IMG/VR virus record: IMGVR_UViG_3300013121_000027
Coordinates: 128,001-192,000 of that record
Direction: 5' to 3' (one strand)
DNA length: 64,000 bases
From: a virus
Taxonomy: Duplodnaviria > Caudoviricetes
Shown piece by piece: positions 1 to 56,397 of this stretch (position 1 is the stretch's first letter; every line of letters starts with the position of its first letter). A program made the position numbers and the translations under genes. Below the pieces are notes generated by a model. The model was not told where the DNA came from and made no database searches. It saw only the letters and a list, made by a program, of their open reading frames with translations.

Positions 1-206
1 TAACCTATATTTTCATTAAAGCCAAAATATTTCAAATTATACTTGTGAAAATTTTCCGTTAACCATTCTCTTGTACCGTCAGTAGATGCGTTGTCTGAAA
101 TGTAAATATTCCAAACGCCTGGTTCATAATCGCTATGTAGCGTATCAAGAAGTCTCTCCAGTAATTTCTTCGTGTTGTAGTTCACGATCAAAAGATCCAC
201 TGCCAT
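1..206 (-). CDS. Family 2 glycosyltransferase (GT-A fold), N-terminal part; truncated by window edge
   Basis: Not in the ORF track. Manual translation from ATG at 206 (RBS AGAGGA upstream): MAVDLLIVNYNTKKLLERLLDTLHSDYEPGVWNIYISDNASTDGTREWLTENFHKYNLKYFGFNENIG..., which carries the GT2 signatures IVNYN, DNASTDGT and NENIG. Confidence 0.9.
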   Translation of the reverse strand, partial: MAVDLLIVNYNTKKLLERLLDTLHSDYEPGVWNIYISDNASTDGTREWLTENFHKYNLKYFGFNENIG

Positions 207-12552: not shown

Positions 12553-15038
12553 TATATAATCTTTCTCGGATTTGCCTTAAGTGTCTTTGTTTTGAGTTGA
12601 ACATAGTTAACTGAAGGACTTACATAAGTATTGTCGTTTACTCTTAGGATAATTCTAAACCTTAAGTTGTTTGGTAGATACTGATAGAAAACCGTAAACT
12701 TTTCCGATATAGGCTTATTAAAAGCGATGCTTCTTCCAGAATGAACAAAAGCAGTTTGCGTTTCACTAAAATCAGAAAGAGAATTTTGAATAAGACCTTT
12801 ATAGTTCGTTTGATTCAAGGCAACAGATCCGTCATTCATTATTATAGTAATAGGTTGGTACGTACCCTGAAAACCATATTGTGAAGAGTAAGATCCAAAC
12901 TCTTCGATTTTTGTATAATCAACAAAAGGATCATTTTTTAAATCAATAATTTGATTATTATATGTTGAAGTAAATGTTTCTCCAGCGCCATAATCATCAA
13001 ACGCGGAAGCTAACAAAGATTGTCCGAAACCAAGATCTTCAAAGTTCACAATCTTACAAGTTGAAGATGGCTCATAATCAATTGTAAATAAATCTAAGTT
13101 ATTGAAAAATCCAGGACGGATCTGAATACCTTTTATCGTATTATTACTTACATTCTTAATGATATCAAAATTTGATGATTCAAGCAGAAATCCATTCTTA
13201 TAGATCCGAACCGATTTATTGATATCAGCCTCGAATCTAAACGTACCCGAGCCTGCCTCATCTATAAACAGCCTTTCACCATTAACCATAGATTCGTCTA
13301 TTGGAAGAATTGGAACCCAATCTGACTCTTTAGATGGGTTAGATTTATTCGAAACCGAGTACTCTATAGATGTGATTAAACTTGTATCTCTACCTCGTCC
13401 CTCAAAAATATAGTTTGTGTCATCAACTTTTATTTTTACTTCCCCAGAATCACTTGGGGCTGGTACTTTCTTTGAAACGAAAATACCTCTAAAAACACGT
13501 TCACCAGAACCAATCTGTATATTTCTTAATCCTAAATTATACTGATAGTCTAAAAACTTTTCTTCTTGTAATTTGGCATATGCGATAAGATCAGCAGATA
13601 GTGGTTGTTGTGGAGAAAGATCTATTTGGGCAGGGCGAGCATTTCCAGATACCATCGTAGATTGGTATGGAGAATTTGTTCTCATGAAGAATGGGTTAGC
13701 ATTAAAGATATGTCTATCCCTGAGCATTTCTGTATTACTAGCGAAAATATTTTCGTCAATCATTCTGCTCATAAAATGATTTATTTGGCTTTTAGAATTT
13801 ATAAAATCTTTCTTCGGATTATTTGAATCATATCCCATTATAATTTTATCTATAGTCAAAGGTCCAAATGAGGCATCAAAATCTATCTCTGGAATCTCCG
13901 ACTTAAATATTTTTACATTTTTTTGTTTTTTTTGTGATTTTATAAACAGTCTCTTTAATGCCTTCTTATTCCTCTTAAAGGAATTATCGGTATATATTGC
14001 AACTTCATTTTTATTTTTCTTAACTTCTTCACTGACTTTTCTGTAAACTATTTCCTGTTGTATTGGTGGAATTTCTCCCCTAAAATAAACAGATTGATTA
14101 AGTATTATTTTCACTTTAGAAATGGGACGAAGCTCAAAACCTAATACCGTTGTCTTATCTAATTTTAAGGGTTCATTTAAAATAGATACCGTTTCAGTTT
14201 TATTATTATCGTTGACAAATAGAACAACTTGCATAACGTCAACTACCAAATCAGAAAATGGCGTCAGCACTAATGAATCGCAAGATGATATTGAATTTAA
14301 AAGTATCTCTAATTCGACTTGTGCACCAGCCTTACCAAAAGTATTGTCGATCTTAGAGGTGATTGGCTTAGGGGAAGATACCGCAATACGCCAACCATTT
14401 CCAACGTCCGTATTAAGAGCTTTATCTATTCCAGTATTGGAAGTCACAAATTGTAGACAATTACTATTTATTATCTCTGCACTAATAGGATATTGGTTTT
14501 TTAGAGATTGTCTTAGAGATAAAACACCTGATGCACTATTAACAGCTGCAAGTTCATTACTCTGAAAGTCGTTTCCAGACCTATCGGTAAGTCTTAGTGA
14601 TGATTCCTCACGCATCGTCTCATCGTTAAAAGTTTCTGTGAATGCATAATCGTAGAAGCCACCATCAGAAAGAGTAAAGGCATAGTTAGAAATAGATTTT
14701 TCCATTGCCATTATTTCATCTTCTATTCCTTTAATTTCGGAAGATAGAATTGAAGTATGTGATTCTAATAAAAGAGAAATTCTATTAGCATTGGCAAAGA
14801 GTTCTAATAGCTTATTTGTGATATCTCTATTAGCCGCATGGAAAGACCTTTCGCTAATAATGGATCCAAAAGATTCTCTATTTAAAATAATTGGAGCATT
14901 CTGCTTTGTATCTGAAAGTTTTTTTGCAATTAGATCAAGATCAGTTTTACTTGCTCTTGCCTCTGATAAAAGGCTATATATATTAATTCTTTGTTTGGCA
15001 GATAGAGTAGTTATATATTCATCTAAAAAATTTCTCAT
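12552..15038 (-). CDS. Virion/baseplate structural protein (paralog cluster)
   Basis: 828 aa; YNLGLRNIQI, C-terminal LRFRIILR...SPSVNYVQLK. Confidence 0.75.
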   Translation of the reverse strand: MRNFLDEYITTLSAKQRINIYSLLSEARASKTDLDLIAKKLSDTKQNAPIILNRESFGSIISERSFHAANRDITNKLLELFANANRISLLLESHTSILSSEIKGIEDEIMAMEKSISNYAFTLSDGGFYDYAFTETFNDETMREESSLRLTDRSGNDFQSNELAAVNSASGVLSLRQSLKNQYPISAEIINSNCLQFVTSNTGIDKALNTDVGNGWRIAVSSPKPITSKIDNTFGKAGAQVELEILLNSISSCDSLVLTPFSDLVVDVMQVVLFVNDNNKTETVSILNEPLKLDKTTVLGFELRPISKVKIILNQSVYFRGEIPPIQQEIVYRKVSEEVKKNKNEVAIYTDNSFKRNKKALKRLFIKSQKKQKNVKIFKSEIPEIDFDASFGPLTIDKIIMGYDSNNPKKDFINSKSQINHFMSRMIDENIFASNTEMLRDRHIFNANPFFMRTNSPYQSTMVSGNARPAQIDLSPQQPLSADLIAYAKLQEEKFLDYQYNLGLRNIQIGSGERVFRGIFVSKKVPAPSDSGEVKIKVDDTNYIFEGRGRDTSLITSIEYSVSNKSNPSKESDWVPILPIDESMVNGERLFIDEAGSGTFRFEADINKSVRIYKNGFLLESSNFDIIKNVSNNTIKGIQIRPGFFNNLDLFTIDYEPSSTCKIVNFEDLGFGQSLLASAFDDYGAGETFTSTYNNQIIDLKNDPFVDYTKIEEFGSYSSQYGFQGTYQPITIIMNDGSVALNQTNYKGLIQNSLSDFSETQTAFVHSGRSIAFNKPISEKFTVFYQYLPNNLRFRIILRVNDNTYVSPSVNYVQLKTKTLKANPRKII

Positions 15039-18000
15039 TCAACCCACCTATTTCCATCAAGATCTTCTATTTGATAAGCTACGCCTATTGTAATGTTTCT
15101 TTCGATAACATCTTTTATTTGTTGATAGGTAAAATCATCTCTTAATTCAGCGGGAAGTCTTATGATTACAAAGCCACCTTTTTGATATGAAACTGCCTTA
15201 TCTGAAATAATATCCCAATAGGATTCTGCCTCTGGTTGTATAGTAGTCATATCCGAAAGAGAAAAGGCAGTAGATAATCCTCCACCGCGTTTTCTCGTAT
15301 CGAGAATAATTAAGTCGTTAATATCTGATGACGTCGAGATGTGTACTATCCCAATCAGAAGCGCTGTTGGATCGAAATCCACTCTACTTGGATTAAAAAT
15401 AGAATCATCACTTGTAAAATTAACGGTTCGTGTCCTGATAGAATCTGATATTAGAACTCCGGCATTGTCAAAAACCGATTCCGGTAACAAATATATATAA
15501 AGGGGTTTGTTAACAAAGTCAGAATTCTTACTTAAGAATGGATTAAAGTTAATCTTTGTTTGTGCATCGCCTTTGAAATTATATACCTTTTTATCGGAAG
15601 TATAATCTACTTTTATTAACTTTGGATCAAGATTTGACAAAGGACTATTTAATGTTATCGTTCCATTTTTTGAGTCAAAATCTTTAATATCGGAAAAAAC
15701 TAATTCAACCCAAGGGCTTGAAGCGCTACTCCTTCTATATACCGTAAAGACGGGCAAATATGGATCCGCTTCAGAGTTATTGTTTGTAGGAACTTGAGAA
15801 ATAAGAAATGGATACTGACTTATTTTAATGGTAGATTCATCAACTATGGTCGGGGTCTCGCCCTTGATATCCAAATAAGGACGTCCATACTTAGAAGACC
15901 AAGCTTCATTTTTAGCTTCTGGTACCGAATAAAATGCTTTAACTGTAGTACCTTGGTAGTTCTTTAGATAATTAGTATAGGATCCATTATCCCTTAATCG
16001 TAATTGAATATCTCTTGTGAAGAATCCAGTTTTAATTGGTAGAGACCATAGATCAGTTTTAGTGAGACCTTTTGACATGGGCTCTATTTTAATGGTTGAT
16101 TGTCGTCCAGAAGTAATAGAGTAAACTGGCATAGCCCATCTAAATGGGCGCATGATTGAATCTATATTTCCAGGAACATTTACTGACGAATCTAATTCAT
16201 ATATTGTTTTAACAGCTATAAATATATTTTGAGGTCCCCTTCTTACGTAATCATAATAGGAAACTTCGGGTTCGCCAAATGTATTAACTAAAAATTCTCC
16301 AGTCTGAATATCATAGAATCCATAGTAGATAGTTTGATCAGTTCCAAAGGCATTTAGTTTATACCTTGCAAAGTGCGTAGATGTCGTCACATTATCGGGA
16401 AGGGCAGATGGGAAACCAAATGGTTTACCGGACGAATCGCAAATAAGCCTTAATCCATCATCTTTTTTAATCCAACCATAATATTTTTCATATTGTTCAA
16501 TAGCACCAGATGTATTCTTGGTATAGAATCCATTTGATCCATTACCAATCATTACTCCATTCACAAAATTTTCCGAACTCAAAACGCTCTGATAACCCTT
16601 ATAGGTTAGCTTTAATTTATTCAGAATCGTAGATTGCCCATCTTCAGTTTCTTCTTGCGCATCTATGAACTCTACATCAAAGAATGCGCCAGTGCTTGAT
16701 GGCTGAATATCTAATGAATGTATATCCCACTTTATATTCGATAAGGCAGAACCATCTGACGATTGGAGCGCCAATGCTGGCGAGAAGATTTGTGGAACTC
16801 CATACTTAAAATTCACTGTTGCAGAAAACGACAGATCAACTCTCTCTTGGTAAGTTCTACCTGGTACAGTAACCGTGACATCTCTATAGTATCCTGCAGC
16901 TCCTGGGAAAAATTTCTTACCATAAACTGCAACATCACGAATACCAATAAATCTTGCGGAACCCCATCCAGCAGGTCCAGATTGAAATGCCCTAAATATG
17001 ATACTATTTGTCGTCGTTTGAGGAACATCAATATTAATCCATTGTCCATCCCCACCACTTTTTCCGATTATATTACCAGGGAATCCTCTGGAAAAATCAT
17101 ACCCATAAAGAGAATCTCTTTCTGCAATGTCAACCCAATCGATACTTAAATTATTTGTTACCGTATCTAAAGTATACGGAAGAATAGAAATTCTATATAT
17201 TGGGAATCTTTCATTAAACTTAATTAAAAATGCTTCACGAATTTGTCCAGGTCCATTATGTTCCCATGACTGCTTGCAGTAAAAAGTTTCTGGCAAGTCA
17301 TCAGAAAGCGAATTTAACATCATAAACTTTTTAGCATTATTTGCATATGATAAAAGAAGAGGGTCATTAAACCCTGGAATATTAGAAATGGCTATTAATT
17401 TATATCCTAATAGAGACCAAGTTTCAGCATCTACAATGCCATCTATATATCTTGCTCCCATATATGTTTGAAATTTTGTTACGGCAGCCGCCGTTTTAGA
17501 TCCATATACACCATCTACCTGTAATCCTGGTCCAGCTATATCGCCAAAAAATATGACATAGTTTAATATTTGCTGAACGACCTTAACTAATTGTCCACTT
17601 GAACTCGCTGTAGAATTGGTCGTCGCGGTAAAGGTTGGCAACTGTCCAAATCCATTTGGAAAAACTTGATCTATGGTATAATTTTTGTAATAAGAAACGG
17701 CGCTAATAGATGTAGAAGTCCTTATAATGGGAAGTCCAGCATCGTTAGTCGTGAATGAAACCTCATACGGTATCACTCCGTGGTATAGTGGGAGTTCGCC
17801 CTTAACAAAATTTCCAGACGTATCGGTTAATAGTAAGCCAGAACTATTCTTTAACATAACCCATCGACTACCATAACTCCAAACCGGACGATATCCAGAC
17901 GGGTAAGGTGTCGAAGGCGTAATCGTATAAGTTGTAGAGGACGATCCCGCATGCAAGAATCCATGAATACCAGGATACGCCCAGTTATTGGGCAGTGTAT

Positions 18001-21000
18001 TATAATAGTTAGCAGAAGTCCAGGTGTCCATTCCGACCGGTTTTGGATATCCATCCTGATGCTTATATTTTGTTTCGTATCTATTTGCACCATCGGTATT
18101 CCAATGAAGAACAACATCAGAGAACGTATCGGCAGTTGGTGGTACCCATACCTGTGTGGTTGTCGTGCTCTCCTCTACGGTTACACTTCTGATAGCTCTA
18201 CCGGTAAGCGAAAAAGTGACAGTCGTATCGCCTATTGAACTATCTATATGGGAAACGTTTGCCTGTAGTTGATATGGTTTCGTCGGATAAACTCTTTGAC
18301 CAGATCCTGGACCAATACCAGATACCATTTCATCTCTTACAACATAAGAACCCAAATGGAATGGAATATTAAAAGCAGGAGAATAAGCTTTTGTCCATGC
18401 GGTTGGAATAGAGTTGTCGTTTATTAAATCAGTCGTTAATGTTTGAACCAATGGATTTGTTATGACGATAAAGTATCTCTTTGTTGCTCCAGTAAAAGAA
18501 TTAAATAAATCATTTGTATGATTGGGGTCTAACCTATTTATCTCTTCCTGAATGATTTGTTTGGCGGTTTTGTCAGAAAGAATCCTTTGCCAGGTTGGTT
18601 CTACGTCGGTAGATTTAACTGGAAGGAGTGCAAAGTTATACTTTATTTTTTCGTCTTCCGCTAAAATACCATTAGATGGATCTATAACCCATGATGTTTT
18701 CCAATCGCTATAGACGGTAACACTTTGAGTATTGCTGTTATTTGTTCCAATAGTATTATTATTAAAATCCGGTCCAGCTTTATTAATTGTCGAATACAAC
18801 ATGGTATTTAATCTCAATTTCATCTCACACGCATTGGCGGCTGAACTAACCATAGCTTTTAGGTTGCGTAGATATGAAGAATTAAGAAGATTTATATCTG
18901 ACAATTGCAATGAACGAGAAGCCATATTGCCATTAACATCAAATAAATGATCTTCAAAAAGACATGAAGTCGAAATGAATAAATTCCCACCACCATTAAA
19001 TCTCTTATGTAGAGCAGTTTTATGATATGCCTGAGTGTATGACTTTTCTATCGAGCAAGAACCATGAATGGTTATTACTTTCCCAGTCGTATCCGTAATA
19101 GTCTCATCTGGATCTAATGCGGTAAAGTCAGCATTTAAAACAGTGGTTCCATCAATTCCATCTCTAATAATTGCATTAAAGAGTTTTCCAGCCGTTGAGT
19201 AAGCACCGTTAGCGTAAGATCCTATATGAAGACCACCAGTTCCACTGAGATAGATTGATGTGACGCCATTTGTCGTATTGGTGGTAAGCGTAGTCCAAGT
19301 TGTTGGCTCGGTATCTTGATCTGCGGCGTATTTAAATGTGATAACTCTGTCACTACCATTAGCAATGTCAAGAGTAACCTTAATCCAATAAGTTTGTCCA
19401 TCAGAAAATGGAACGACGCTCGAAAGACTTGTTGAAATAGCGGTACCGTTTGTACTCCACCATAGGTTAAGTTTTCCATCTCCATCAACCAAAAGGGCAT
19501 ATTGGTACTCTCCGGATGTCGTCCAAGATTTTCCTATTAATCCCTGATTTTCTCCATATATCCAGTTGTCAAGAGCAACCCTACATACTATTTCTAAATC
19601 GGTATCAATGTTTAATGAGGCGTGATCTGGTGATGTAAGCTGTGTTCCATCTATTCTTTCTGTTCTTATATAAGTTTTATCGGAATCCGTATTAAGAGCT
19701 TCGAGAACTGGTCTAAAAGCGGCTGAGTCATAAGATTTAATAAACTGAAAAGAAACATCGGCTATATTTTGATATGCAGAAAGCGATTCTTCTTTTTCCT
19801 GATCTGTGAGTGACCATCCAGCAATGACATCTGCATCTGAAAGAATGGACCCTGTATCGGTATAGCTATTGATTATATCTGAAACATTAGGTGGCCAATT
19901 TTCCCACATACCAAAGGCACCGAATGTATCATCCTGATTGTCTATAGTAGCGTCATAGATTCTTAACGTAGAGGCTGATACCATATCGGTAACGTTAAGT
20001 GGATCGATTAAAGATGTCTGAAGTGTTTCCGAGAATTCAAAATCGGTTAAGCCAGATAGATCGCAAGAACTTGAAGTCTCAAGAATAAACGTCTTACCGA
20101 GTTGTTCAACGAAATAGTTTATTTTAGGTAAATATGGAGATATATCAATCGACTCCGCGGACGGTGCCCAAAGAAGGATATCGAAATTAGATAATTGATC
20201 TAAAGTTATTGATCCAATGTCTACATGCCAGTATGCGGCTTGTGTCTTTGTAAAACCCACTACATTGGAGTAATCGTAAGTTTCATGAAGTGGATTCACA
20301 AATTGAATTTTCGTGAAATTAAAATCACTTATGTTTAACTGATGAAAGAAGAAATTGGCTCTGGTAGAAAGATGATCGCCACCAGGTGGAACGACAACAC
20401 CAACCCGAATAAAAGTTGGCTCTTGACTAACAGTATTTGTTCCTGTATTTTCTTGCACTCTTGGACGCGTTATCTCACATGCCATCCGCCATCTGAAAAG
20501 CTGAAATACTCTTGGATCTGGAACCGCTTTACGCGGCACAAAGTATTTCCACCCATTAGAATTAACAGTAGAAGTTCCCAGAAGGTTTTGCTTCTTAGAA
20601 TATGGCTTAGATGAAAATATTTTTTCATTTATATTAGCTTGATCTACTACATCTGTTTCTTCTGGAATATATTTAAAATAATTGATAGGATTTATTTTCT
20701 CTTTAAATCCTTCTTCAAAATTTTTTAAGTTACCATTAATAGTTATTTCGGTTTTATTATAAACTAAAAATAGATCTTCAGTAATTGCATCTACGTGTAA
20801 AAAAACATGAATTCTATACACGGAATTTCTTGAGTCGGGATCTACCTGAACGCCATTTGGCTCAACGATAAAAATTTTATATTTCTTTTTTTCATTTTCA
20901 TCAACGAAATCAGATCCATTTTTATCTATAACTTTCACTAAGTTACCTAAATACTCTATCAAAGAACCAAAAGCAAGTCCGGTAAAATCTAAATGAAAAT

Positions 21001-21364
21001 ACCTACTCGCATGCAAAAAGGGTAAAGCCACATCCAAAACATAATCGGATTCTTTTACATTGGAAGGATCATCCATATTAAAGACGTCACCAACTATTGG
21101 ATATTCCTCTTCCCAAACTTGATTGCCATTTTCATCTTCAAGAACACCAAGAGCATTAGCATAGGCTATCTTGACTTTATTCTGTTCCGAGTTGTTAACA
21201 GAAAATGCGGCTTGTGAAGTATCAACTATGACGATATTATTCTCTGGATTAACTTTAGGTGGTTGTACCCACGCTAAGTTTACAGCCCCCTCCGGAACTA
21301 TTTGCCCACGCCTTAAAGCTTGTTCGATATTATCATCGGCTATATTTTCAAATCGTTTTGTCAT
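15035..21364 (-). CDS. Large multidomain baseplate/receptor-binding protein with LamG-like and peptidoglycan-binding domains
   Basis: LamG/ConA-like segment at ~19060-19680 (PDHASLNI...GKSW...LHIGS...GKLFNAII); PG_binding_1-like segment at ~17410-17600 (VKVVQQIL...VDGVYGSKTAAAVTKFQ...IDGIVDAETWSLL). Confidence 0.8.
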   Translation of the reverse strand: MTKRFENIADDNIEQALRRGQIVPEGAVNLAWVQPPKVNPENNIVIVDTSQAAFSVNNSEQNKVKIAYANALGVLEDENGNQVWEEEYPIVGDVFNMDDPSNVKESDYVLDVALPFLHASRYFHLDFTGLAFGSLIEYLGNLVKVIDKNGSDFVDENEKKKYKIFIVEPNGVQVDPDSRNSVYRIHVFLHVDAITEDLFLVYNKTEITINGNLKNFEEGFKEKINPINYFKYIPEETDVVDQANINEKIFSSKPYSKKQNLLGTSTVNSNGWKYFVPRKAVPDPRVFQLFRWRMACEITRPRVQENTGTNTVSQEPTFIRVGVVVPPGGDHLSTRANFFFHQLNISDFNFTKIQFVNPLHETYDYSNVVGFTKTQAAYWHVDIGSITLDQLSNFDILLWAPSAESIDISPYLPKINYFVEQLGKTFILETSSSCDLSGLTDFEFSETLQTSLIDPLNVTDMVSASTLRIYDATIDNQDDTFGAFGMWENWPPNVSDIINSYTDTGSILSDADVIAGWSLTDQEKEESLSAYQNIADVSFQFIKSYDSAAFRPVLEALNTDSDKTYIRTERIDGTQLTSPDHASLNIDTDLEIVCRVALDNWIYGENQGLIGKSWTTSGEYQYALLVDGDGKLNLWWSTNGTAISTSLSSVVPFSDGQTYWIKVTLDIANGSDRVITFKYAADQDTEPTTWTTLTTNTTNGVTSIYLSGTGGLHIGSYANGAYSTAGKLFNAIIRDGIDGTTVLNADFTALDPDETITDTTGKVITIHGSCSIEKSYTQAYHKTALHKRFNGGGNLFISTSCLFEDHLFDVNGNMASRSLQLSDINLLNSSYLRNLKAMVSSAANACEMKLRLNTMLYSTINKAGPDFNNNTIGTNNSNTQSVTVYSDWKTSWVIDPSNGILAEDEKIKYNFALLPVKSTDVEPTWQRILSDKTAKQIIQEEINRLDPNHTNDLFNSFTGATKRYFIVITNPLVQTLTTDLINDNSIPTAWTKAYSPAFNIPFHLGSYVVRDEMVSGIGPGSGQRVYPTKPYQLQANVSHIDSSIGDTTVTFSLTGRAIRSVTVEESTTTTQVWVPPTADTFSDVVLHWNTDGANRYETKYKHQDGYPKPVGMDTWTSANYYNTLPNNWAYPGIHGFLHAGSSSTTYTITPSTPYPSGYRPVWSYGSRWVMLKNSSGLLLTDTSGNFVKGELPLYHGVIPYEVSFTTNDAGLPIIRTSTSISAVSYYKNYTIDQVFPNGFGQLPTFTATTNSTASSSGQLVKVVQQILNYVIFFGDIAGPGLQVDGVYGSKTAAAVTKFQTYMGARYIDGIVDAETWSLLGYKLIAISNIPGFNDPLLLSYANNAKKFMMLNSLSDDLPETFYCKQSWEHNGPGQIREAFLIKFNERFPIYRISILPYTLDTVTNNLSIDWVDIAERDSLYGYDFSRGFPGNIIGKSGGDGQWINIDVPQTTTNSIIFRAFQSGPAGWGSARFIGIRDVAVYGKKFFPGAAGYYRDVTVTVPGRTYQERVDLSFSATVNFKYGVPQIFSPALALQSSDGSALSNIKWDIHSLDIQPSSTGAFFDVEFIDAQEETEDGQSTILNKLKLTYKGYQSVLSSENFVNGVMIGNGSNGFYTKNTSGAIEQYEKYYGWIKKDDGLRLICDSSGKPFGFPSALPDNVTTSTHFARYKLNAFGTDQTIYYGFYDIQTGEFLVNTFGEPEVSYYDYVRRGPQNIFIAVKTIYELDSSVNVPGNIDSIMRPFRWAMPVYSITSGRQSTIKIEPMSKGLTKTDLWSLPIKTGFFTRDIQLRLRDNGSYTNYLKNYQGTTVKAFYSVPEAKNEAWSSKYGRPYLDIKGETPTIVDESTIKISQYPFLISQVPTNNNSEADPYLPVFTVYRRSSASSPWVELVFSDIKDFDSKNGTITLNSPLSNLDPKLIKVDYTSDKKVYNFKGDAQTKINFNPFLSKNSDFVNKPLYIYLLPESVFDNAGVLISDSIRTRTVNFTSDDSIFNPSRVDFDPTALLIGIVHISTSSDINDLIILDTRKRGGGLSTAFSLSDMTTIQPEAESYWDIISDKAVSYQKGGFVIIRLPAELRDDFTYQQIKDVIERNITIGVAYQIEDLDGNRWVE

Positions 21365-21366
21365 GA

Positions 21367-24300
21367 TTAAAATTCCTTATAATCAGGATATTGTGGCGTA
21401 GCAGCTATAGAATCGTAAGTCGTTCCCAATATACCCATTTGGTACTGGGTATACTTGTCTATCGCATACCAGGAGGGTGGAGTCCAAATAATAACATCCT
21501 CATTTAACCCTGGTTCTAAAACCAGTTCATCATATGTTGTTGGGAAAGCGGGAGTCGCAGTATATTCTGGAAGATTCCAATAAGGAGTAGATGACTGTTC
21601 GGTACCAAGTGGTAGTCCAGAAATAAGATCTATACTATTAGTAACATCCGGATACTCATACCAATACACTAAATCACCAATTGTGGTAAAAGTTCCAGAT
21701 GGTGAAGCCGATTCGGATTCTGTTGATACAAACCAATATCCCGGAGTATCAGATGGATTAAATGGTCCAATTGAGAATCTACCATTTTGATCCGCTACAA
21801 CTCGTCCGTGTATACCGTCTAATCCTGGAGTCGCAGAAGAAGTATCCCAATCTATATTAAAAACTTCATATATAGTTCTTCCTTTACGCCAATATACATA
21901 AGCATTACTAACAGCATCGTGACCACTTGTGGTTACTTTGCCGTAAACGAAATTAGCATTTTCTGGATCGGCTAAAATATAATCTGAATCTGGTATCGCA
22001 TAAATACTATATGTTTCCGTCGGTATGACTTCAATATCAAATTTCGCAGTAGTAGAAAAATCCCCTTCAACCAGAATAATTCCCTGATCTAAAGTTCCAG
22101 GAGTAGCAGGTGCCAATGCTGGAGTAGAGGGGTAAGCCGGTGTGGCTGGGGTCCAAATATTTGATTGAAGTGTAAATGCGGTAAACCCATTATTATCCGT
22201 TATAACCACATCGTCTGACAAAGATCCAAAGTTAGTAAAAACATTTAGAGATTGGTAGGGTTTTGGATTGCCATTTATATCTGTTGTTTTGACAGTGACT
22301 ATGGCATAATCAATTCCATCGGACACTATTTTTGTTGGACTTATAGAGATATCAATTCTGTCAAGATCATAAATATCGTGATCTATATAGATAAATCCAT
22401 CATCTATAAATGTCTCGTTTGGATTAAGCTCAATATCGGCTGGTGTAGCTGGATCATAAATGGAAACCTCATATTCTATCCTATAGTAATCTGCCCCAAT
22501 TTCTCCAGGTGGTCTATCAAAAAAGACTTTTGTTTTATTTAAACCATCACTATCTACAAAATCATTATCTATATAGTATGAATAATTAGGAATATAATTG
22601 ACGTCATATTCATGAATTGAAATTGTTGGCGTTGCCAACTGTATCTCGTTGGATAATGTATAATTGGCAATCAATCCAAGAGATGAATTCGTGGTCGTAT
22701 CTACGATTGTTATATCTCTTATATCTTGGTATGAAGCTTTAAGCGCAGCCGTGTCATTCCCTGTTATTCTTTCTGTATTATCAATAGATAAAAGTGGTGT
22801 AGCGCTGTCGTAATTAAAGAATGAGGTTTGTCTAAGTTCAGCTATTGGCGTAGCACCATCTATAGCTTTAATTATAATAGGAGCACCTTGTCTGTTAAGA
22901 TCTGAAAGAACTTTATAAGATCCGGTAGCTTGTTCTGTATTTGGACTCGCATATAAATAATACTCATCCGTATCATCGTAAAACCATCCAGAATGGAGCT
23001 TTGGATTCCATTTCTGATTTATATTTGGTCTTAATCTACAAAAAATACGTAAAGTACTTAAATTATAAGTCAGTGTATCTGGATCATAGATCTCTATATT
23101 GACTGTGGATGGATACTGAACGGACAAATCAGTTTCTCCATAGTCCACAACGGCAGGTTTTATTGTGTTGGTTTCAAGCCAAACTATAACATTTGGTTCA
23201 TCAACGCTCTCAACACCAATCCATGTTAAGATATAATCTTCGGTTTCTGGAATATTGAAATCTGCTCTTGTTAATTCAAGATTGTCTAATAGATAGTCGC
23301 TACTATTAAAGTCTTGAGTTTTTCCATTTCTCCATGGTCCACTGGCATCTACGGTTCCACTTATTGGAGTTACGATAGAGCTTTCAAAGATCTCCCATAC
23401 ACCAATGTTAACTGGATAAGCTGCGCCTGACGTAGTAGAAAAGGTTAAGGATGTTGTTCCCGCGCTAAATGTCTTGTAATAATCGTCTGTCCAGGTAGTA
23501 TTTCCGTCTACAGCTATATATGTATTGGGTATAAAAATAGGAGTTGAAGCCACAGCATCAGAATATGCCCCAAACGTAGTAAGATTATAATTTGTTATAA
23601 AATCTACTTTGATAAGCCTTGAGCTTGTTGATGCTGGCCAGACAAAATTTGGAAGAGTTAGAACATAATCCTGAGCAGTCATGTCAGGCATTACGCCATT
23701 TAATGTTATATTATACGTATATTTTTCCGTTTGCCATGTATCAGGCGTTGCACCTAAATAATTTGTACTATGGCTTTCAAACCAAAATGCACCAAAGTGG
23801 TTCCACCAGGTATATGGACTCTTGGTTAATGAAGTTCCACCATCAAGCCCCATAATTGTACCTGGTTCGCCATCAAACCATGCCTTATAATCACTCTGTG
23901 TTGGAGCATTCATATAAGCTGGCGTTGCCGCATCTCCATTAAAGTGTCCTGGATAAATATTAACAGCTGATACTAACGGAAGTGGAATTTGAGACCCATA
24001 ACTAACACCGGTTGATTTATTTTTAAAATCAAATCCGATATCTGTATATCCATCTGGAGTGGTCCATTCTATTAGGGCACGAGAGGCTGGCGATGGTGTT
24101 GGCGTATAGTAATCCACATCACTTTTGGCGGTGGCGGTAACATTACAGTAGAAGGTATGTTGAGTTGGTGAAGCTCCATCTTCATAAACTGATAACTCGA
24201 TTGTAAAATATCCCTGCAAAACAGGATTATCCCAAACGGCATTTGCAGCCGTACCATAAATCTGGACAGCAAACGATAGCGGAATATGTTCTGATCGTAA

Positions 24301-25890
24301 AGTCTTTTTACGTCCCTTTATCTTTAAAGTTGTATTAAAATCATACTTATTTTGCACTTCGCGCGGTCTAAATACATAAAGATCATTACCATCACCAACG
24401 CCAGATTCAAGATACTCTTGTGACACTGGCGTAGCATCTAATTGCCTTGGTAGTGTGTCAAATCCCTTATGTCCATTAAAACCATCAGCATCCCAGAAGG
24501 CATTTCCGTATTTGAAAAATCCCCAAGTCATAGGATATTTAATTGCCAATTCTTGAACCAGATCTTTAAATTTTTGAGTTGGGATACCATCAACAAAGAA
24601 GTCTTCATCATTTTCTATATCGGATATTTCTATGACTTCAGGAGTAGCCCCAAGGAAAGCGGAATCCGGAGTCGCGTTTGAATATCTCCAAAGGTTCAAT
24701 TCTCGTCTTAAAGTTTTCTTAAATAATTCTTTACTAACGCCCGGGTTATTTATATAAACATCTAAAATCCTCTTCCTAAAAGAATCATTATCTTCTAGAT
24801 ACCCATTAGGGGTTGCACTTTGAATCCTAAAGAGATCAACAGAGACACCAAGATCATCAAGCCCATTCCAAATATGATATGGCTTTTGATATACTTTAGT
24901 TCCGTTTATTAAAAGTTCGTCATATAAAATATTAGTAAATATTTCATCTGTAGCCCTAGACCAATAACATGCATTGTCGTCATCTTGTGATGCGTAAAAT
25001 TCCTCAACGCTTGAGGTCTTAGCTAACGATATACCATCACCAGTTATAGACCAAACAATATCTGGTACGCCCTGTGTAATATAAATCCAAGCTTTTTGAT
25101 CTAAATCAACTGTATCGATATAATATTGATATTCCTGATACTTTATTTTTTGAGTAAGATCAGTAAGCCACTCTCCAGCAATAGCATTTAAAAACTCTCC
25201 ACCTACTGAGATTGGTGTTGCTTTATCTTCTTTAAGGGGATCGTCTGGATCATGCTCACGAAGTGCCATCCATTGTGGAAATTTATCTTGTATTTTTTTT
25301 GTTGATGCGAAATATCCATTTGTTACAGGTGGATCTATCTCTACAGCAATAATCATCTCTATAGATTTGCCGTCTACAAGGATAGTCGAATCTAAATCAA
25401 AAATAAGTTCAAAGAACGCATACCTGGACGATTCAATATTGAAAACATTTCTTCCCAAGATGATATTTTCTTGAACGGACCAATCACTTACCATTGATGG
25501 GGTGGCATGAAGATAATAAGGAGTGGAATCAGAAAAGTCGGAGGTGTAAACCGAGAGTTTACTTCCAACAGCCGACGAGATTGAGGCATCGAATGATACC
25601 TTCCAGTCCATAATATCGATTCTGGCTGACGTATCTACGAACCTTCCAGAATCTACAAAACCAATTTCCGATTCAGTTGCAGATAACTGATTTAATCCAG
25701 TATAAACGCCATTATTTAAAAGGTTAGTCCCAAAACCAATCCTTTTAACTGTATAGTTTTTGTATTGTGAATTAAAGTATAGATCGAAAACGTCCGTACG
25801 CCAAGTATACCTCGTATTGGTATCGTCTAAGATATCGGATGTCTTACTGACGAAATCATTTTCAGTAAAACGCAGATGATAAAGTTTCAT
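21367..25890 (-). CDS. Large baseplate/tail protein with a Big-1 (invasin-type Ig) domain and 17 Ala-Thr-Pro motifs
   Basis: Directly after baseplate J; LDDLG...LFR...EDNDSFRKRI wedge-like motif; Ig-like SPTKIVSDG.DYAIVTVKTTDINGNP...TDNNGFTAFTL at ~22165-22350. Confidence 0.8.
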   Translation of the reverse strand: MKLYHLRFTENDFVSKTSDILDDTNTRYTWRTDVFDLYFNSQYKNYTVKRIGFGTNLLNNGVYTGLNQLSATESEIGFVDSGRFVDTSARIDIMDWKVSFDASISSAVGSKLSVYTSDFSDSTPYYLHATPSMVSDWSVQENIILGRNVFNIESSRYAFFELIFDLDSTILVDGKSIEMIIAVEIDPPVTNGYFASTKKIQDKFPQWMALREHDPDDPLKEDKATPISVGGEFLNAIAGEWLTDLTQKIKYQEYQYYIDTVDLDQKAWIYITQGVPDIVWSITGDGISLAKTSSVEEFYASQDDDNACYWSRATDEIFTNILYDELLINGTKVYQKPYHIWNGLDDLGVSVDLFRIQSATPNGYLEDNDSFRKRILDVYINNPGVSKELFKKTLRRELNLWRYSNATPDSAFLGATPEVIEISDIENDEDFFVDGIPTQKFKDLVQELAIKYPMTWGFFKYGNAFWDADGFNGHKGFDTLPRQLDATPVSQEYLESGVGDGNDLYVFRPREVQNKYDFNTTLKIKGRKKTLRSEHIPLSFAVQIYGTAANAVWDNPVLQGYFTIELSVYEDGASPTQHTFYCNVTATAKSDVDYYTPTPSPASRALIEWTTPDGYTDIGFDFKNKSTGVSYGSQIPLPLVSAVNIYPGHFNGDAATPAYMNAPTQSDYKAWFDGEPGTIMGLDGGTSLTKSPYTWWNHFGAFWFESHSTNYLGATPDTWQTEKYTYNITLNGVMPDMTAQDYVLTLPNFVWPASTSSRLIKVDFITNYNLTTFGAYSDAVASTPIFIPNTYIAVDGNTTWTDDYYKTFSAGTTSLTFSTTSGAAYPVNIGVWEIFESSIVTPISGTVDASGPWRNGKTQDFNSSDYLLDNLELTRADFNIPETEDYILTWIGVESVDEPNVIVWLETNTIKPAVVDYGETDLSVQYPSTVNIEIYDPDTLTYNLSTLRIFCRLRPNINQKWNPKLHSGWFYDDTDEYYLYASPNTEQATGSYKVLSDLNRQGAPIIIKAIDGATPIAELRQTSFFNYDSATPLLSIDNTERITGNDTAALKASYQDIRDITIVDTTTNSSLGLIANYTLSNEIQLATPTISIHEYDVNYIPNYSYYIDNDFVDSDGLNKTKVFFDRPPGEIGADYYRIEYEVSIYDPATPADIELNPNETFIDDGFIYIDHDIYDLDRIDISISPTKIVSDGIDYAIVTVKTTDINGNPKPYQSLNVFTNFGSLSDDVVITDNNGFTAFTLQSNIWTPATPAYPSTPALAPATPGTLDQGIILVEGDFSTTAKFDIEVIPTETYSIYAIPDSDYILADPENANFVYGKVTTSGHDAVSNAYVYWRKGRTIYEVFNIDWDTSSATPGLDGIHGRVVADQNGRFSIGPFNPSDTPGYWFVSTESESASPSGTFTTIGDLVYWYEYPDVTNSIDLISGLPLGTEQSSTPYWNLPEYTATPAFPTTYDELVLEPGLNEDVIIWTPPSWYAIDKYTQYQMGILGTTYDSIAATPQYPDYKEF

Positions 25891-25905: not shown

Positions 25906-27057
25906 TTAAGAAAGAGCGACACCAACAACTATATCGCCAGGGATAATTTGTTCATCATAAGCTGGTTTATAATTGCGTCTTGTAAGTTCGCTACCATTAA
26001 TAGAAAATCTTTTAACTATGACATCTTTTATAATACTTGTCGATTCTAATATTGTTGATATAAGTCTATTATATACTAATTGCTCCCCTGGCATCAAGGA
26101 ATTAAGATATCTTACAATGCCAACATTTGCTCTTTGTATTGCGTTCTCGGTAATTTGATTATTTCCAGCCATTGGAATAATTAAATCTACAGAGATATCA
26201 ACTGGTTTAGTTGTGGGAAGACGAACAAACATTCTTGTTCCAAGTGGACGAACAGATTCCATCGCTGCTGTAACTTGCGATGAAACTTGCTTTGTGTTAA
26301 CATTCCTCTCCGGTACGACTATAGCCTCAAATGATCCCATACCATAAGGCGTTTGACCGATGGAAATATCTCTGACTCCGGCTACGCTTAATGCTGCAAA
26401 TCTGACAGCTTGGACAGTTCCACTTGCGTTGACTCTTATTTGCTTTATGATCCTTGCTCTATAAGAATCATCTTCTTCGTAATTAATCAATTGAGAAATC
26501 GTTTTTGGATTAGTGCAAAAAACAGTGGCTCCGGGAGGAGAAGCGAAGTCGTGAAGAATAAGAGAATTTGGAGCCGCAGTGAATACTGAATCGCTAAAGT
26601 TTGGAATTAATCCAGTGTAAGCTACTTTCCTTCCCATAAGAATAGTAGTTTCTTCCTGCGTTTTATATGAAAATGTTCTGCCTATATATGTTGTAGCATC
26701 GGTGTAAACATTGGTTCCACTTGGGATTTTGATATCGAATGGCGCAGGGGTTTGAGTGAAAAATATAAACGCTCCAAGTTTTTTATCTATGATTGCTAAA
26801 TCGTTTATAGTCTTTCTTGTAACCCCATAAAGAGAACCAAATAAATCAAGTGCTGCGCCGGTGGCGGTAGATAATATGTTCTGATTTAGATTATAATCTA
26901 ATATATCATACATGTCACCAAGCTCTGTCGTTATAGCCTCTGTTATTGCTCGCGCGACAGATCCTGGATTCGTTGCGGAAATAGAGGAAGATAAAGATAT
27001 TTTTCTTAGTGCTTGAGATAAAATATCTGCATTATTCTTTTTTAGGTATCCTGGCAT
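25906..27057 (-). CDS. Baseplate J / gp47-like wedge protein
   Basis: PGSVARAI, TATGAALDLFG..YGVTR, EEDDSYRARI, ALSVAGV. Confidence 0.9.
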   Translation of the reverse strand: MPGYLKKNNADILSQALRKISLSSSISATNPGSVARAITEAITTELGDMYDILDYNLNQNILSTATGAALDLFGSLYGVTRKTINDLAIIDKKLGAFIFFTQTPAPFDIKIPSGTNVYTDATTYIGRTFSYKTQEETTILMGRKVAYTGLIPNFSDSVFTAAPNSLILHDFASPPGATVFCTNPKTISQLINYEEDDSYRARIIKQIRVNASGTVQAVRFAALSVAGVRDISIGQTPYGMGSFEAIVVPERNVNTKQVSSQVTAAMESVRPLGTRMFVRLPTTKPVDISVDLIIPMAGNNQITENAIQRANVGIVRYLNSLMPGEQLVYNRLISTILESTSIIKDVIVKRFSINGSELTRRNYKPAYDEQIIPGDIVVGVALS

Positions 27058-54338: not shown

Positions 54339-55571
54339 TTAGAAGTTTACTGACACCTGAACAACTACTTCACGCAGTTCAAAAGCTGGGACGATTGCGA
54401 GATCGATATAAGCCTTATTGTCTGCTGGTGAGTATTGGACTCTGAAGTCTGATTGGTTAATCGCACCAAGCTTAGTCATTGATTGAAGCGAAGAAGAGAT
54501 TTGTGTCTGGAACGCGTTTTGCATCGTGATAGACATACCTTCGCCAACATAGTTCTGAGCGATGTTCTTAATTAGCTTAACTGCATCGAATACGATTCGA
54601 ATTGTTGAAAGTCTAATAAAGTCAGATGTCGTAGCGGCGAACGTAGTACCATCAACCCACTTGGGGATTCTGCTGAAGTCGAGCTGTCCAACAACAACAC
54701 CCTTACCAGAAAGCGTCTCGGCTTGAGCACGAGTCACATTATAGCGCAGTTGGTCAATATTATACATCGGCTTATTGGTTGTTGCGCTCCAAGATGAGAG
54801 ACGAGAAATAAGCGCAGCATACAAGCAGGCACCATTGCTATACCCCCAATCTGTCGGTGCAGAGATGGGATGCACTTCTGTAGCGATAACAGAAATGTAA
54901 TCACCAGAAGTAAAAGAGTCCTTATTGATAAGTGAAGAAAATGCTATACCATCAGCTAATTGTGTTGGAGTTGGGTTTTGAGGTCCAGCAATTGGATTTA
55001 CGCCTATGACTCCAACTACTGGATATGAATTGTATGTGATTTCCGAGCACTTATCGGCAACTTGCTTTGCCCAGCTATAGGAAGCATTAGTCGAGTTGTC
55101 CGCATAGAAGAAATCGCTTGAACTACCACCAGGAGTTGCAACTGGAGTTGCATAGTCATCCCAGTCTGTCGTTACACTACCGCGACCCCAAGGCACTACT
55201 ATATCTGCGCGAACAGCTTCAACCGAGGCGAAAGCCTCATCGAAAATATTCAATGTTGGATAAGTAGCACTGGCAATGGTACCAGCGCCATGATTAAATG
55301 TAGTGTTAGAAGGTAATGGGATAAAAGCAACTCTCGGCGCTCCACCAGTGCTTAATTCGTAGAAGGCGCGGTGGATTTGAGAATTTTCACCAAACTTTGT
55401 AATAACATCTTGCTCAGAAGTAGCAAGGTAGGGCACAAAATCTGGAGCAGCCGCCGTAGCATCATTGCTTCTTTTAGCAATAACAGCAATAAGAGGACCA
55501 CCTGGCAGGTCGGTTCTTGCTTGGTTGTAGAAACGATCTAGAATTGTAGTTTTGACACCTGGGAGAGCCAT
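54339..55571 (-). CDS. Tail sheath protein (major)
   Basis: MALPGVKT N-terminus; sheath C-terminal domain RLSTIRIV...YVGE...IDLAIVPAFELREV; GGAGG RBS. Confidence 0.88.
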   Translation of the reverse strand: MALPGVKTTILDRFYNQARTDLPGGPLIAVIAKRSNDATAAAPDFVPYLATSEQDVITKFGENSQIHRAFYELSTGGAPRVAFIPLPSNTTFNHGAGTIASATYPTLNIFDEAFASVEAVRADIVVPWGRGSVTTDWDDYATPVATPGGSSSDFFYADNSTNASYSWAKQVADKCSEITYNSYPVVGVIGVNPIAGPQNPTPTQLADGIAFSSLINKDSFTSGDYISVIATEVHPISAPTDWGYSNGACLYAALISRLSSWSATTNKPMYNIDQLRYNVTRAQAETLSGKGVVVGQLDFSRIPKWVDGTTFAATTSDFIRLSTIRIVFDAVKLIKNIAQNYVGEGMSITMQNAFQTQISSSLQSMTKLGAINQSDFRVQYSPADNKAYIDLAIVPAFELREVVVQVSVNF

Positions 55572-55689: not shown

Positions 55690-56397
55690 TTAGCTATTAG
55701 TATTATTATCCAGTAGTGAAGTATAAATAGGATAAGTGATTGGTGTAGCGTCAGGCTCATAGGATGGTGTTGCGTCGTCCGCAACAATTGCTTGAACTTG
55801 TAGGAAGATACTATCAAGCTTATCTATACTGGTAGTAAGAACTTTTTGAATGCCAACCATGTAGGCGATCGAGCGAGAGGAAAGATCATCTCCATATCGT
55901 GTTTCGTGAGAATCTGACATTCTACGTACGTATGAAATAGATTCAAGACCCAACATTTGTAACATGGGCTTGATCTGAATCATGAAATCCTCATACTCTT
56001 CTATAATTTCTTCTGCAACTCTGGGTACTTTATGAATTGCGGTAAACTTAACAATAATATAAAAACTTTCTATAAAGATTGCAAGCTTTTTAGTTGGATC
56101 AGTTGGATCATCAACCGTCTCATACGGTTTTGGTTTAGGAGAATTATTTTTGGGCTTTTTATCTTCTAAAGTGTAAATAATATAACCAAGTTCTGGATTG
56201 AATATCTTTTGTTCGCCAAAGGGACCAAATTTAATTTCAGGATGCCCTTCACTCCATAATTTATTTACCACATCTATAAATTGTAAATAAGATAAATTTC
56301 CTTTAGATTTTAATGGTGGAAGAACAGAACCATATGGCTGTATATATTCTGGAGATGGATATGGAGTTTGCTTTTGCGTTGAAAAATCAAATTTCAT
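55690..56397 (-). CDS. Putative tail completion/terminator protein
   Basis: Between the two sheath genes; alpha/beta pattern ESFYIIVKFTAIH...AEEIIEEYEDFM...RSIAYMV; C-terminal DATP x2. Confidence 0.6.
   Translation of the reverse strand: MKFDFSTQKQTPYPSPEYIQPYGSVLPPLKSKGNLSYLQFIDVVNKLWSEGHPEIKFGPFGEQKIFNPELGYIIYTLEDKKPKNNSPKPKPYETVDDPTDPTKKLAIFIESFYIIVKFTAIHKVPRVAEEIIEEYEDFMIQIKPMLQMLGLESISYVRRMSDSHETRYGDDLSSRSIAYMVGIQKVLTTSIDKLDSIFLQVQAIVADDATPSYEPDATPITYPIYTSLLDNNTNS

What the first reader, a model, noticed from the sequence alone, without database searches (positions are those of the whole stretch)
21367..25890. Ala-Thr-Pro tripeptide saturating structural proteins: candidate sequon for a phage virion-modification (glycosylation) system
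Seen: the 1507-aa baseplate protein has 17 ATP tripeptides (HATP, KATP, SATP x3, NATP, GATP x3, DATP, AATP x2, LATP, PATP x3, TATP) plus several STP/ASP variants. From composition, under one would be expected. Codons differ between copies (GCC-ACC-CCA, GCA-ACA-CCA, GCA-ACC-CCT, GCG-ACT-CCG, GCT-ACG-CCA), so this is protein-level selection, not a DNA repeat. ATP also appears in loop or terminal positions of the sheath (YATPVATP), tail-completion protein (DATPSYEPDATP), neck protein (GATP), the 117-aa baseplate protein (DATP) and 62958-63758 (AATP). I saw none in nrdJ, thyX, the putative RNAP or the 2767-aa hub. A GT2 glycosyltransferase begins at the window edge (1-206). Established: some mycobacteriophages glycosylate virion proteins with their own glycosyltransferases, and actinobacterial O-glycosylation targets Thr in Ala/Pro contexts. 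Inference: a sequon-directed system that decorates the outer virion surface (glycan shield, host attachment or protease resistance).
Basis: partly seen in the sequence, partly recalled or inferred. Interest (0 to 1): 0.85.

Follow-up and report, generated by a model that had tools for sequence, protein, structure and literature searches.

The report
Ala/Ser-Thr-Pro tag on phage baseplate arm
One large outer baseplate protein of an uncultured 231-kb water phage carries 17 scattered copies of the three-residue tag Ala-Thr-Pro (chance gives 0.5); about 175 relatives keep the tag and a few lineages lost it all at once, so some other factor reads it, most likely a phage sugar-adding enzyme, though no chemistry has been done.

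Summary
The 1507-aa protein (window 21367-25890, minus strand) has 17 ATP and 4 STP where 0.52 ATP is expected (0 of 2000 shuffles). The sites use 12 different 9-mers, so the selection is on the protein. ATP is the top tripeptide outlier in the whole 231-kb genome.

The motif is [A/S]-T-P. All 120 first-found homologues (27-62% identical) carry it, at 18.0 ± 3.8 tags per protein. Ten sites are nearly fixed and 115 are lineage-specific. All 14 sites that fall in the AlphaFold models lie in coil or at strand edges.

The decisive result is block loss. Six proteins nested inside the tagged family have 0-2 tags, from 3-5 independent losses. In them the central Thr is the residue lost (kept 4/49, against Pro 24/49). 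The tag is therefore not needed for the fold and is read in trans.

The best candidate reader is Thr O-glycosylation by phage GT-A glycosyltransferases, three of which are core genes of this family. This is inference: there is no chemistry. I could not test whether tagless lineages also lost the transferases, because their contigs were unreachable.

"Saturating structural proteins" overstates the pattern. It sits mainly in this one protein and one tail fibre outside the window.

This scan has reported the same tag before, in related phages on other DNA.

The parts
21367..25890 (-). Tagged peripheral baseplate protein, 1507 aa, with 17 ATP and 4 STP. It has an N-terminal alpha/beta core and a C-terminal string of Ig-like beta-sandwich domains.
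   Evidence: for the counts. It lies directly downstream of the Baseplate_J gene. Big_1/Invasin_D3 match at residues 1178-1244. AlphaFold models. The C-terminal model matches intimin/invasin Ig-like domains.
24640..24648 (-). Tag at residue 415 (GATPE), the most conserved site in the family.
   Evidence: ATP in 117 of 120 homologues. In the tagless lineages this site keeps A-x-P but loses the Thr (AYP, AYP, AHP, SDP, ALP).
24667..24675 (-). Tag at residue 406.
   Evidence: [AS]TP in 110 of 120 homologues. It lies in the coil at residues 209-232 of model 1.
25213..25221 (-). Tag at residue 224.
   Evidence: ATP in 47 of 58 close homologues. It lies in a loop between helices.
24427..24435 (-). 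Tag at residue 486.
   Evidence: ATP in 43 of 58 close homologues. It lies in a low-confidence loop.
22795..22803 (-). Tag at residue 1030.
   Evidence: [AS]TP in 93 of 120 homologues. It lies in coil just before a strand.
22441..22449 (-). Tag at residue 1148 (YDPATP).
   Evidence: ATP in 54 of 58 close homologues, and STP in 37 of 62 distant ones. It lies at a coil/strand edge.
21826..21834 (-). Tag at residue 1353.
   Evidence: [AS]TP in 40 of 58 close and 21 of 62 distant homologues. It lies in the loop at 406-421 of model 2.
25906..27057 (-). Baseplate J-like wedge protein with 0 tags. It fixes the place of the tagged protein in the baseplate module.
   Evidence: PF04865 at E 4e-17 and phrog_6 at E 2e-40. 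0 ATP.
55690..56397 (-). 235-aa virion protein with two ATP sites (residues 209 and 217, DATPSYEPDATP).
   Evidence: 2 observed against 0.05 expected. Both sites are ATP in all three complete relatives, although overall identity is only 28-33%. phrog_20284, virion structural protein.
54339..55571 (-). Tail sheath with 2 ATP, of which one site (residue 145) is conserved.
   Evidence: Tail-sheath PHROGs. Residue 145 is [AS]TP in all three relatives.
1..206 (-). First 68 codons of a 271-aa GT2 glycosyltransferase (genome 127391-128206). It is a core gene of the phage family and the last gene of a glycan-synthesis cluster that lies outside the window.
   Evidence: PF00535 at E 3e-16. Orthologues at 42-45% identity in G001, G002 and G005.

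Best explanation
[Ala/Ser]-Thr-Pro is a short recognition tag (sequon) on surface loops of the outermost baseplate protein. It also occurs on a few other virion proteins, and in this phage on one tail fibre.

A trans-acting factor encoded by the phage family reads the tag. The most likely factor is a soluble GT-A glycosyltransferase that attaches a sugar to the Thr hydroxyl in the host cytoplasm, before or during tail assembly. Further phage transferases, and in this genome methyltransferases and a 4,6-dehydratase, would then build the glycan.

The likely result is a glycan coat on the exposed baseplate arm, serving as protection, adhesion or masking.

Shown here: the tag is real, it is under strong purifying selection, it is repeatedly re-invented, it lies in loops, the fold does not need it, it is lost all-or-none, and the Thr is the critical residue.

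For: 1. Size and spread of the excess. 17 ATP against 0.52 expected. All 120 homologues carry 4-21 ATP, and 61 IMG/VR orthologues carry 13-27 [AS]TP while neighbouring baseplate genes carry 0-1, across loci of 32-51% G+C.

2. Strictness of the motif. 83% of all TP dipeptides in the family follow A or S, A-T-P outnumbers A-S-P 1530 to 202, and K/R are depleted at positions -3 to -1.

3. Sequon-like turnover. There are 156 distinct tag columns, 10 core and 115 rare, yet the number per protein is steady at 18.0 ± 3.8.

4. Block loss. Tag density is bimodal. Six in-family proteins have 0-2 tags while their sisters have 11-16. P0155 groups with P0052 and P0049 (support 0.92 and 0.99), and P0156 with P0154 and P0151 (support 1.0).

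5. The Thr is what is lost. At conserved sites in tagless proteins Thr is kept 4/49, against Pro 24/49 (Fisher p 1e-5) and A/S 21/49. In P0155 tag-Thr is kept 1/9, against 40/54 for other conserved Thr (p 6e-4).

6. The tag follows the phage, not the fold.
- Bacillus-phage homologues of the N-terminal core have 0 ATP.
- This phage's FN3 fibre has 13 tags, while most of its homologues elsewhere have 0-6 (one has 7) against about 2 expected.

7. All 14 modelled sites lie in coil or at strand edges.

8. Candidate enzymes.
- Three GT-A genes are core to G000, G001, G002 and G005: a 271-aa GT2, a 245-aa GT2-like protein, and a 261-aa protein between the portal gene and a protease-like gene.
- The 261-aa protein matches procollagen galactosyltransferase at E 2e-10 and has an invariant D-S-D.
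- It is present in 7 of 8 tagged records, including all 5 that are at least 90% complete.
- The two Bacillus phages with tagless homologues have neither PF00535 nor this gene.
- G000 also carries a GT17-like gene, two more GT2s, two methyltransferases and a Polysacc_synt_2 dehydratase.

9. No conserved alternative enzyme was found. There is no prolyl-hydroxylase family hit. The one weak kinase-like ORF falls below the Pfam cut-off and is absent from the relatives.
Against: - No chemistry exists for any member of this family.
- Glycosyltransferases are common in jumbo phages and can serve host-envelope or other targets. In relatives the accessory GT17/GT2 pair sits beside poly-Thr proteins, which may be its real substrates.
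- The key test, co-loss of the transferases in the tagless lineages, could not be run here.
- The only negative contrast I have (the Bacillus phages) is phylogenetically distant, so it counts as one event.
- [A/S]-T-P matches no known bacterial O-glycosylation sequon. A Pro at +1 is also the hallmark of proline-directed kinases.
- A general glycan shield would be expected on the capsid and sheath, but the tag is nearly confined to one protein.
- Tripeptides containing Pro favour loops anyway, so the loop location is weak evidence.
Confidence: 0.5

Rival explanations
1. Docking or assembly code. The [A/S]-T-P loops are bound non-covalently by another phage protein, such as a fibre, a decoration protein or an assembly chaperone. 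Lineages that lost that partner then lost the tags.
For: The block loss and the Thr-specific decay show only that a trans-acting reader exists, not that it is an enzyme. The tag is nearly confined to one baseplate protein, which suits a specific partner better than a general coat.
Against: - About 18 binding sites per chain, 115 of them lineage-specific and constantly relocated, is unlike a protein-protein interface, which keeps fixed positions.
- The same tripeptide appears on an unrelated fibre, the sheath and a 235-aa protein.
- A three-residue epitope gives little binding energy.
- No candidate partner was identified.
Confidence: 0.15
2. A different covalent modification of the same tag, for example Thr phosphorylation by a proline-directed kinase (phage or host), or a modification of the Pro with Thr acting as a recognition residue.
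For: [S/T]-P is the classic proline-directed kinase motif. There is a strong preference for Thr over Ser. A weak Pkinase-like ORF lies at genome 17080-18174 (E 2e-6, below the cut-off).
Against: - The kinase-like ORF has no orthologue in G001, G002 or G005, which all carry the tag.
- No 2OG-Fe(II) prolyl-hydroxylase family hit was found.
- A host enzyme would not explain block loss among closely related phages unless they had switched hosts.
- Three core glycosyltransferases have no other assigned substrate.
Confidence: 0.12
3. A purely structural motif. A-T-P is a favoured turn or strand-edge element of this fold and is conserved for folding alone.
For: - Ten sites are positionally conserved down to 28% identity.
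- A and P are partly retained in tagless proteins, at 43% and 49%, so they carry some structural load.
- All sites are in loops or at strand edges.
Against: - Six full-length in-family proteins fold without the tags.
- Bacillus-phage homologues of the core have none.
- Thr is replaced by E, D, V, R and K.
- Tag-Thr decays faster than other conserved Thr (p 6e-4).
- 115 rare sites arise in non-homologous contexts.
- An unrelated fibre gained 13 tags only in this genome.
Confidence: 0.07

Closest known systems
Virion O-glycosylation of mycobacteriophages (Che8, Rita) by phage-encoded glycosyltransferases: Freeman et al. 2023, Cell Host Microbe 31:1216, as cited and summarised in PMC11256854
   Same: The phage carries its own glycosyltransferases, and methyltransferases as well in this genome. 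The presumed substrate is a virion protein modified in the cytoplasm, and the presumed outcome is a glycan coat.
   Different: - In mycobacteriophages the glycans are reported on the major capsid proteins (PMC11256854). Here the target is loops of one peripheral baseplate protein.
- A strict three-residue tag with about 18 copies per chain has no counterpart that I know of.
- The phages are unrelated (uncultured aquatic jumbo myophages, against actinobacterial siphophages).
- Chemistry is proven there and absent here.
- I could not read the primary paper, which is not held.
Sequon-directed protein glycosylation in general: N-X-S/T, and the Bacteroidetes O-glycosylation motif D-(S/T)-(A/I/L/V/M/T) (from my own knowledge)
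   Same: It behaves the same way in evolution.
   Different: The motif is different. Those systems act in the periplasm or ER through oligosaccharyltransferases, whereas a phage tail protein must be modified in the cytoplasm.
Cytoplasmic flagellin O-glycosylation, e.g. Caulobacter FlmG (PMC7591256, listed)
   Same: Soluble glycosyltransferases modify Ser/Thr on the surface-exposed parts of a structural protein before it is assembled.
   Different: I know of no three-residue sequon for flagellins. No homology between FlmG and the phage enzymes was tested here.
Peripheral baseplate proteins encoded after the gp6/Baseplate_J gene in contractile tails (T4 gp7, P2 gpI, Afp12 type; from my own knowledge)
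   Same: The gene sits directly downstream of Baseplate_J. It is large and carries Ig-like domains.
   Different: No sequence or fold match to a solved baseplate protein was found for the N-terminal core. The nearest cultured homologues are unannotated 536-590-aa Bacillus-phage proteins without tags.

Membership tests
Phage-encoded virion glycosylation (mycobacteriophage type) | The phage genome encodes glycosyltransferases | tested here: met
   Four PF00535 hits, one GT17-like gene and one GT25-like gene in G000. Three of them are core to four complete genomes.
Phage-encoded virion glycosylation (mycobacteriophage type) | Glycan covalently attached to a virion protein | not testable with these tools
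   This needs mass spectrometry or glycostaining of virions, and no cultured member exists.
Phage-encoded virion glycosylation (mycobacteriophage type) | The target is the major capsid protein, as reported for Che8 and Rita (PMC11256854) | tested here: not met
   The major capsid protein (346 aa, L001:1933-2973) has 0 ATP and one non-conserved STP. The tags sit on the baseplate protein.
Sequon-directed protein modification | A short motif in strong excess on the substrate, in unrelated local contexts and with varied codons | tested here: met
   17 observed against 0.52 expected, with 12 distinct 9-mers. 156 tag columns across the family.
Sequon-directed protein modification | The motif depends on a trans-acting reader: all-or-none loss, with the acceptor residue decaying first | tested here: met
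   3-5 independent block losses. Thr kept 4/49, against Pro 24/49. 1/9 against 40/54 in P0155.
   The two distant Bacillus phages lack both the tags and the GT genes. In-family tagless contigs could not be fetched.
Sequon-directed protein modification | The motif matches a described sequon | tested here: not met
   [A/S]-T-P is neither N-X-S/T nor D-(S/T)-(A/I/L/V/M/T). Literature searches found no [A/S]-T-P phage sequon.
GT25 / procollagen galactosyltransferase-like GT-A enzyme (the 261-aa core protein, L001:5492-6277) | Sequence similarity to the family and a DxD-type metal/nucleotide motif | tested here: met
   A profile of 4 orthologues matches COLGALT1 residues 25-155 at E 2e-10. The motif L-D-S-D is invariant. 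No Pfam hit at E 0.01, so membership is distant.
Proline-directed kinase substrate | A kinase conserved together with the [S/T]-P sites | tested here: not met
   There is only a sub-threshold Pkinase hit (24 bits against a cut-off of 31.7), and it has no orthologue in the tagged relatives.
Peripheral baseplate (gp7 / gpI / Afp12-like) protein | Position after the Baseplate_J gene, and fold similarity to a solved baseplate protein | tested here: inconclusive
   The gene order is met. Foldseek found no match at E 0.001 or better for the N-terminal core. The C-terminus is made of generic Ig-like domains.

The most novel reading that the evidence does not exclude
A whole family of uncultured aquatic jumbo phages uses a strict three-residue sequon, [A/S]-T-P, to direct a phage-encoded cytoplasmic enzyme to about 18 surface loops of the baseplate arm. 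To my knowledge this would be the first defined O-modification sequon in any phage. It would come with an identifiable enzyme set (a GT25-like gene and two GT2 genes) and natural loss-of-function lineages to serve as controls.
Probability: 0.5. Interest if true: 0.85.

Novelty: new variant of a known kind. Interest (0 to 1): 0.75.

Why it matters
Virion glycosylation in phages is known experimentally from only a few mycobacteriophages. I found no report of a short, portable sequon there. A three-residue tag that a small phage enzyme reads in the bacterial cytoplasm would show that phages coat their host-contacting machinery and not only their capsids. It would also give a compact tool for site-directed protein modification in bacteria.

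The hypothesis is directly testable. About 175 natural tagged variants, six natural tagless variants and three candidate enzymes are in hand.

The evolutionary evidence for such a system is strong.

Tried and rejected
**Readings rejected**
- DNA repeat or compositional artefact. The sites use 12 distinct 9-mers, and the tag persists across loci of 32-55% G+C.
- Hidden internal protein repeat. Spacing is aperiodic and the flanks are unrelated.
- Prolyl hydroxylation. PF13640 gives no hit in the genome; only this one 2OG family was searched.
- Kinase. The only hit is sub-threshold and is not conserved in relatives.

**Searches that did not settle the question**
- Fold identity of the N-terminal core: no PDB match.
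- Cultured phages carrying the system. None found: the baseplate protein gives only 4 distant GenBank hits, and the GT25-like gene gives none.

**Attempts to reach the genomes of the tagless lineages all failed**
- P0155 and P0146 are not in IMG/VR.
- A profile of the six tagless proteins retrieved only tagged relatives from IMG/VR and from metagenome contigs.
- Their contigs exist only in ENA or Logan assemblies.

**Other dead ends**
- The Freeman et al. primary paper is not held.
- Rfam found nothing in the window, and there are no tRNAs in the 123 kb scanned.
- The host remains unknown.

Full report
**What the window is.** The window is bases 128001-192000 of a 231,459-bp IMG/VR virus record. 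The record has direct terminal repeats, is rated 100% complete and is 38% G+C. It is a jumbo myophage. The window holds a sheath gene, Baseplate_J and many very large virion proteins, all on the minus strand. The nearest cultured relatives are Bacillus jumbo phages, at about 24% identity over part of one protein.

**The observation.** The ORF at 21367-25890(-) encodes 1507 aa with 17 ATP tripeptides, where its composition predicts 0.52. None of 2000 shuffles reaches 17.
- 17 of its 21 AT dipeptides are followed by P. 21 of its 28 TP dipeptides are preceded by A (17) or S (4).
- Spacing is aperiodic and the flanks are unrelated.
- The sites use 12 distinct 9-mers.
- Genome-wide, ATP is the top tripeptide outlier, at z 12.2 against 6.0 for the next.
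- The GT2 at the window edge is real.

**How far the excess extends.**
- Two proteins carry 28 sites against 1.35 expected. One is this protein. The other is a 1618-aa FN3 tail fibre outside the window (L001:10772-15628).
- The rest of the virion module has 19 against 5.7 (0 of 1000 shuffles).
- The rest of the genome has 12 against 6.8.
- A few minor sites are nevertheless deeply conserved. Both ATP sites of the 235-aa protein at 55690-56397 are ATP in three relatives that share only 28-33% identity. The same holds for one sheath site and for one site in each of two proteins next to the capsid gene.

**A family property.** All 120 homologues found first (27-62% identical) carry 4-21 ATP against 0.2-0.9 expected. 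The more distant ones mix ATP with STP.
- The motif is [A/S]-T-P. 83% of all TP dipeptides follow A or S, A-T-P outnumbers A-S-P 1530 to 202, and Lys/Arg are depleted just upstream.
- In 61 IMG/VR loci with a complete orthologue the count is 13-27. Adjacent baseplate genes have 0-1, across loci of 32-51% G+C.
- In three complete relatives (G001, G002, G005) the excess is essentially confined to this orthologue.
- Ten sites are nearly fixed; residue 415 is ATP in 117 of 120. Yet there are 156 distinct tag columns, 115 of them rare, and the number per protein stays at 18.0 ± 3.8.
- This mix of fixed sites, turnover and steady density is how glycosylation sequons evolve.

**Structure.** Two AlphaFold models were made with 54-sequence alignments: residues 190-560 (pLDDT 75) and 940-1507 (pLDDT 79).
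- All 14 modelled ATP sites lie in coil or at strand edges.
- The C-terminal part is a chain of Ig-like domains of the intimin/invasin type (Big_1).
- The N-terminal core has no PDB match.

**The decisive result: block loss.** A full HMMER scan of 1.8 billion representative proteins found 181 long-form relatives, and their tag density is bimodal.
- Six in-family proteins have 0-2 tags: P0146, P0150, P0155, P0156, P0157 and P0160.
- They are nested among tagged sisters. P0155 (1 tag) groups with P0052 (16) and P0049 (14) at supports 0.92 and 0.99. P0156 groups with P0154 and P0151 at support 1.0.
- This gives at least three and up to five independent losses.
- P0155 is as similar to its sisters (56-58%) as they are to each other (57%).
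- At nine conserved sites the tagless proteins keep Pro in 24/49 cells and A/S in 21/49, but Thr in only 4/49. Thr is replaced by E, D, V, R or K (Fisher p 1e-5).
- In P0155 tag-Thr survives at 1/9 sites, against 40/54 for other Thr conserved in both sisters (p 6e-4).
- The fold therefore does not need the tags. They stand or fall together, and the Thr is the residue under the special constraint. Something encoded elsewhere reads them.

**The tag follows the phage, not the fold.** Bacillus-phage homologues of the N-terminal core (536 and 590 aa) have no ATP, and the short-form relatives have none or almost none. Conversely, this phage's FN3 fibre has 13 tags, while most of its homologues in other phages have 0-6 (one has 7) against about 2 expected.

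**Candidate readers.**
- Just upstream of the window lies a glycan-synthesis cluster (genome 118330-128206). It holds a GT17-like gene, two methyltransferases, four GT2 or GT2-like genes, a Polysacc_synt_2 4,6-dehydratase and a Dam methylase.
- Only part of the cluster is conserved. The 271-aa GT2 and the 245-aa GT2-like gene are shared by all four complete genomes.
- A third core gene is a 261-aa protein between the portal gene and a protease-like gene. Its profile matches procollagen galactosyltransferase at E 2e-10, and it has an invariant D-S-D.
- That gene is in 7 of 8 tagged records, including all 5 that are at least 90% complete. It is in no GenBank phage.
- The two tagless Bacillus phages have neither a PF00535 gene nor this one.
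- No prolyl-hydroxylase hit was found. The only kinase-like ORF is sub-threshold and not conserved.

**What remains unproven.** Nothing shows that a sugar is attached. Whether the tagless lineages also lost the transferases is the test that matters, and I could not run it.
- Their contigs are held only in ENA or Logan assemblies.
- Four scans of IMG/VR and the metagenome collection returned only tagged relatives.
- Earlier notes of this scan, on related genomes, state that one tagless lineage lacks two transferase genes. That is an unchecked lead, not evidence I can count.

**Verdict.** The glycosylation reading is partly supported. A trans-read tag is strongly supported, at about 0.85. Thr O-glycosylation by phage GT-A enzymes is the best single mechanism, at about 0.5. 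The rivals are a docking code (0.15), another covalent modification (0.12) and a purely structural motif (0.07).

Phage virion glycosylation is known from mycobacteriophages (Freeman et al. 2023, via PMC11256854). A strict three-residue tag on a baseplate arm, with natural knock-out lineages, would be a new variant of it.

The same tag has already been reported by this scan in related phages on other DNA.

Noticed in passing
window 52493-54208 (minus strand): A tail-tube-like gene is split by an insert of about 1 kb that carries a 294-aa ORF with a LAGLIDADG-type motif (53027-53911). Residues 1-54 of the relatives' 233-aa protein align to 54208-54047. Residue 55 onward (SPNPRSFSRGKRG...) resumes at about 52999. 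This looks like an intron with a homing endonuclease. Rfam finds no group I or II intron at the gathering threshold.
   Followed up: partly
genome 118330-128206 (L003:10330-20000 and window 1-206): A glycan-synthesis cluster holding a GT17-like gene, two methyltransferases, four GT2 or GT2-like genes, a Polysacc_synt_2 4,6-dehydratase and a Dam methylase. Only the 271-aa and 245-aa GT2 genes are shared by all four complete genomes. The dehydratase, both methyltransferases and one GT2 are specific to this phage.
   Followed up: partly
L001:5492-6277 (genome 197492-198277, minus strand): A 261-aa core gene lies between the portal gene and a protease-like gene. It has no Pfam hit, but its profile matches procollagen galactosyltransferase (COLGALT1) at E 2e-10 and it has an invariant L-D-S-D. 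It is a glycosyltransferase embedded in the head-morphogenesis module and is absent from all GenBank phages.
   Followed up: partly
relatives G001 (111364-121174), G005 (89931-92225), G002 (204960-207701): Large proteins with poly-Thr runs of up to 27 residues. In G001 and G005 they sit directly beside the GT17-like/GT2 pair. TTT is the top tripeptide outlier in G002 and G005 and the second in G001. The window's genome has no such protein. They may be a second, mucin-like substrate class for the accessory transferases.
   Followed up: no
window 58850-62655: A 995-aa and a 273-aa protein are very rich in Thr (15-17%) and Ala and lie in a locally G+C-rich stretch (48% against 38%). They have no ATP, no PHROG hit for the 995-aa protein, and no orthologue in the three complete relatives.
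   Followed up: no
The neighbouring 825-aa ORF is a ribonucleotide reductase (PF02867, E 1e-86).
   Followed up: partly
window 15035-21364: The 2109-aa protein just downstream of the tagged protein carries a PG_binding_1 domain (residues 1256-1319, E 2e-10). This suggests a virion-borne component that binds or degrades the cell wall. It has 0 ATP and one STP.
   Followed up: no
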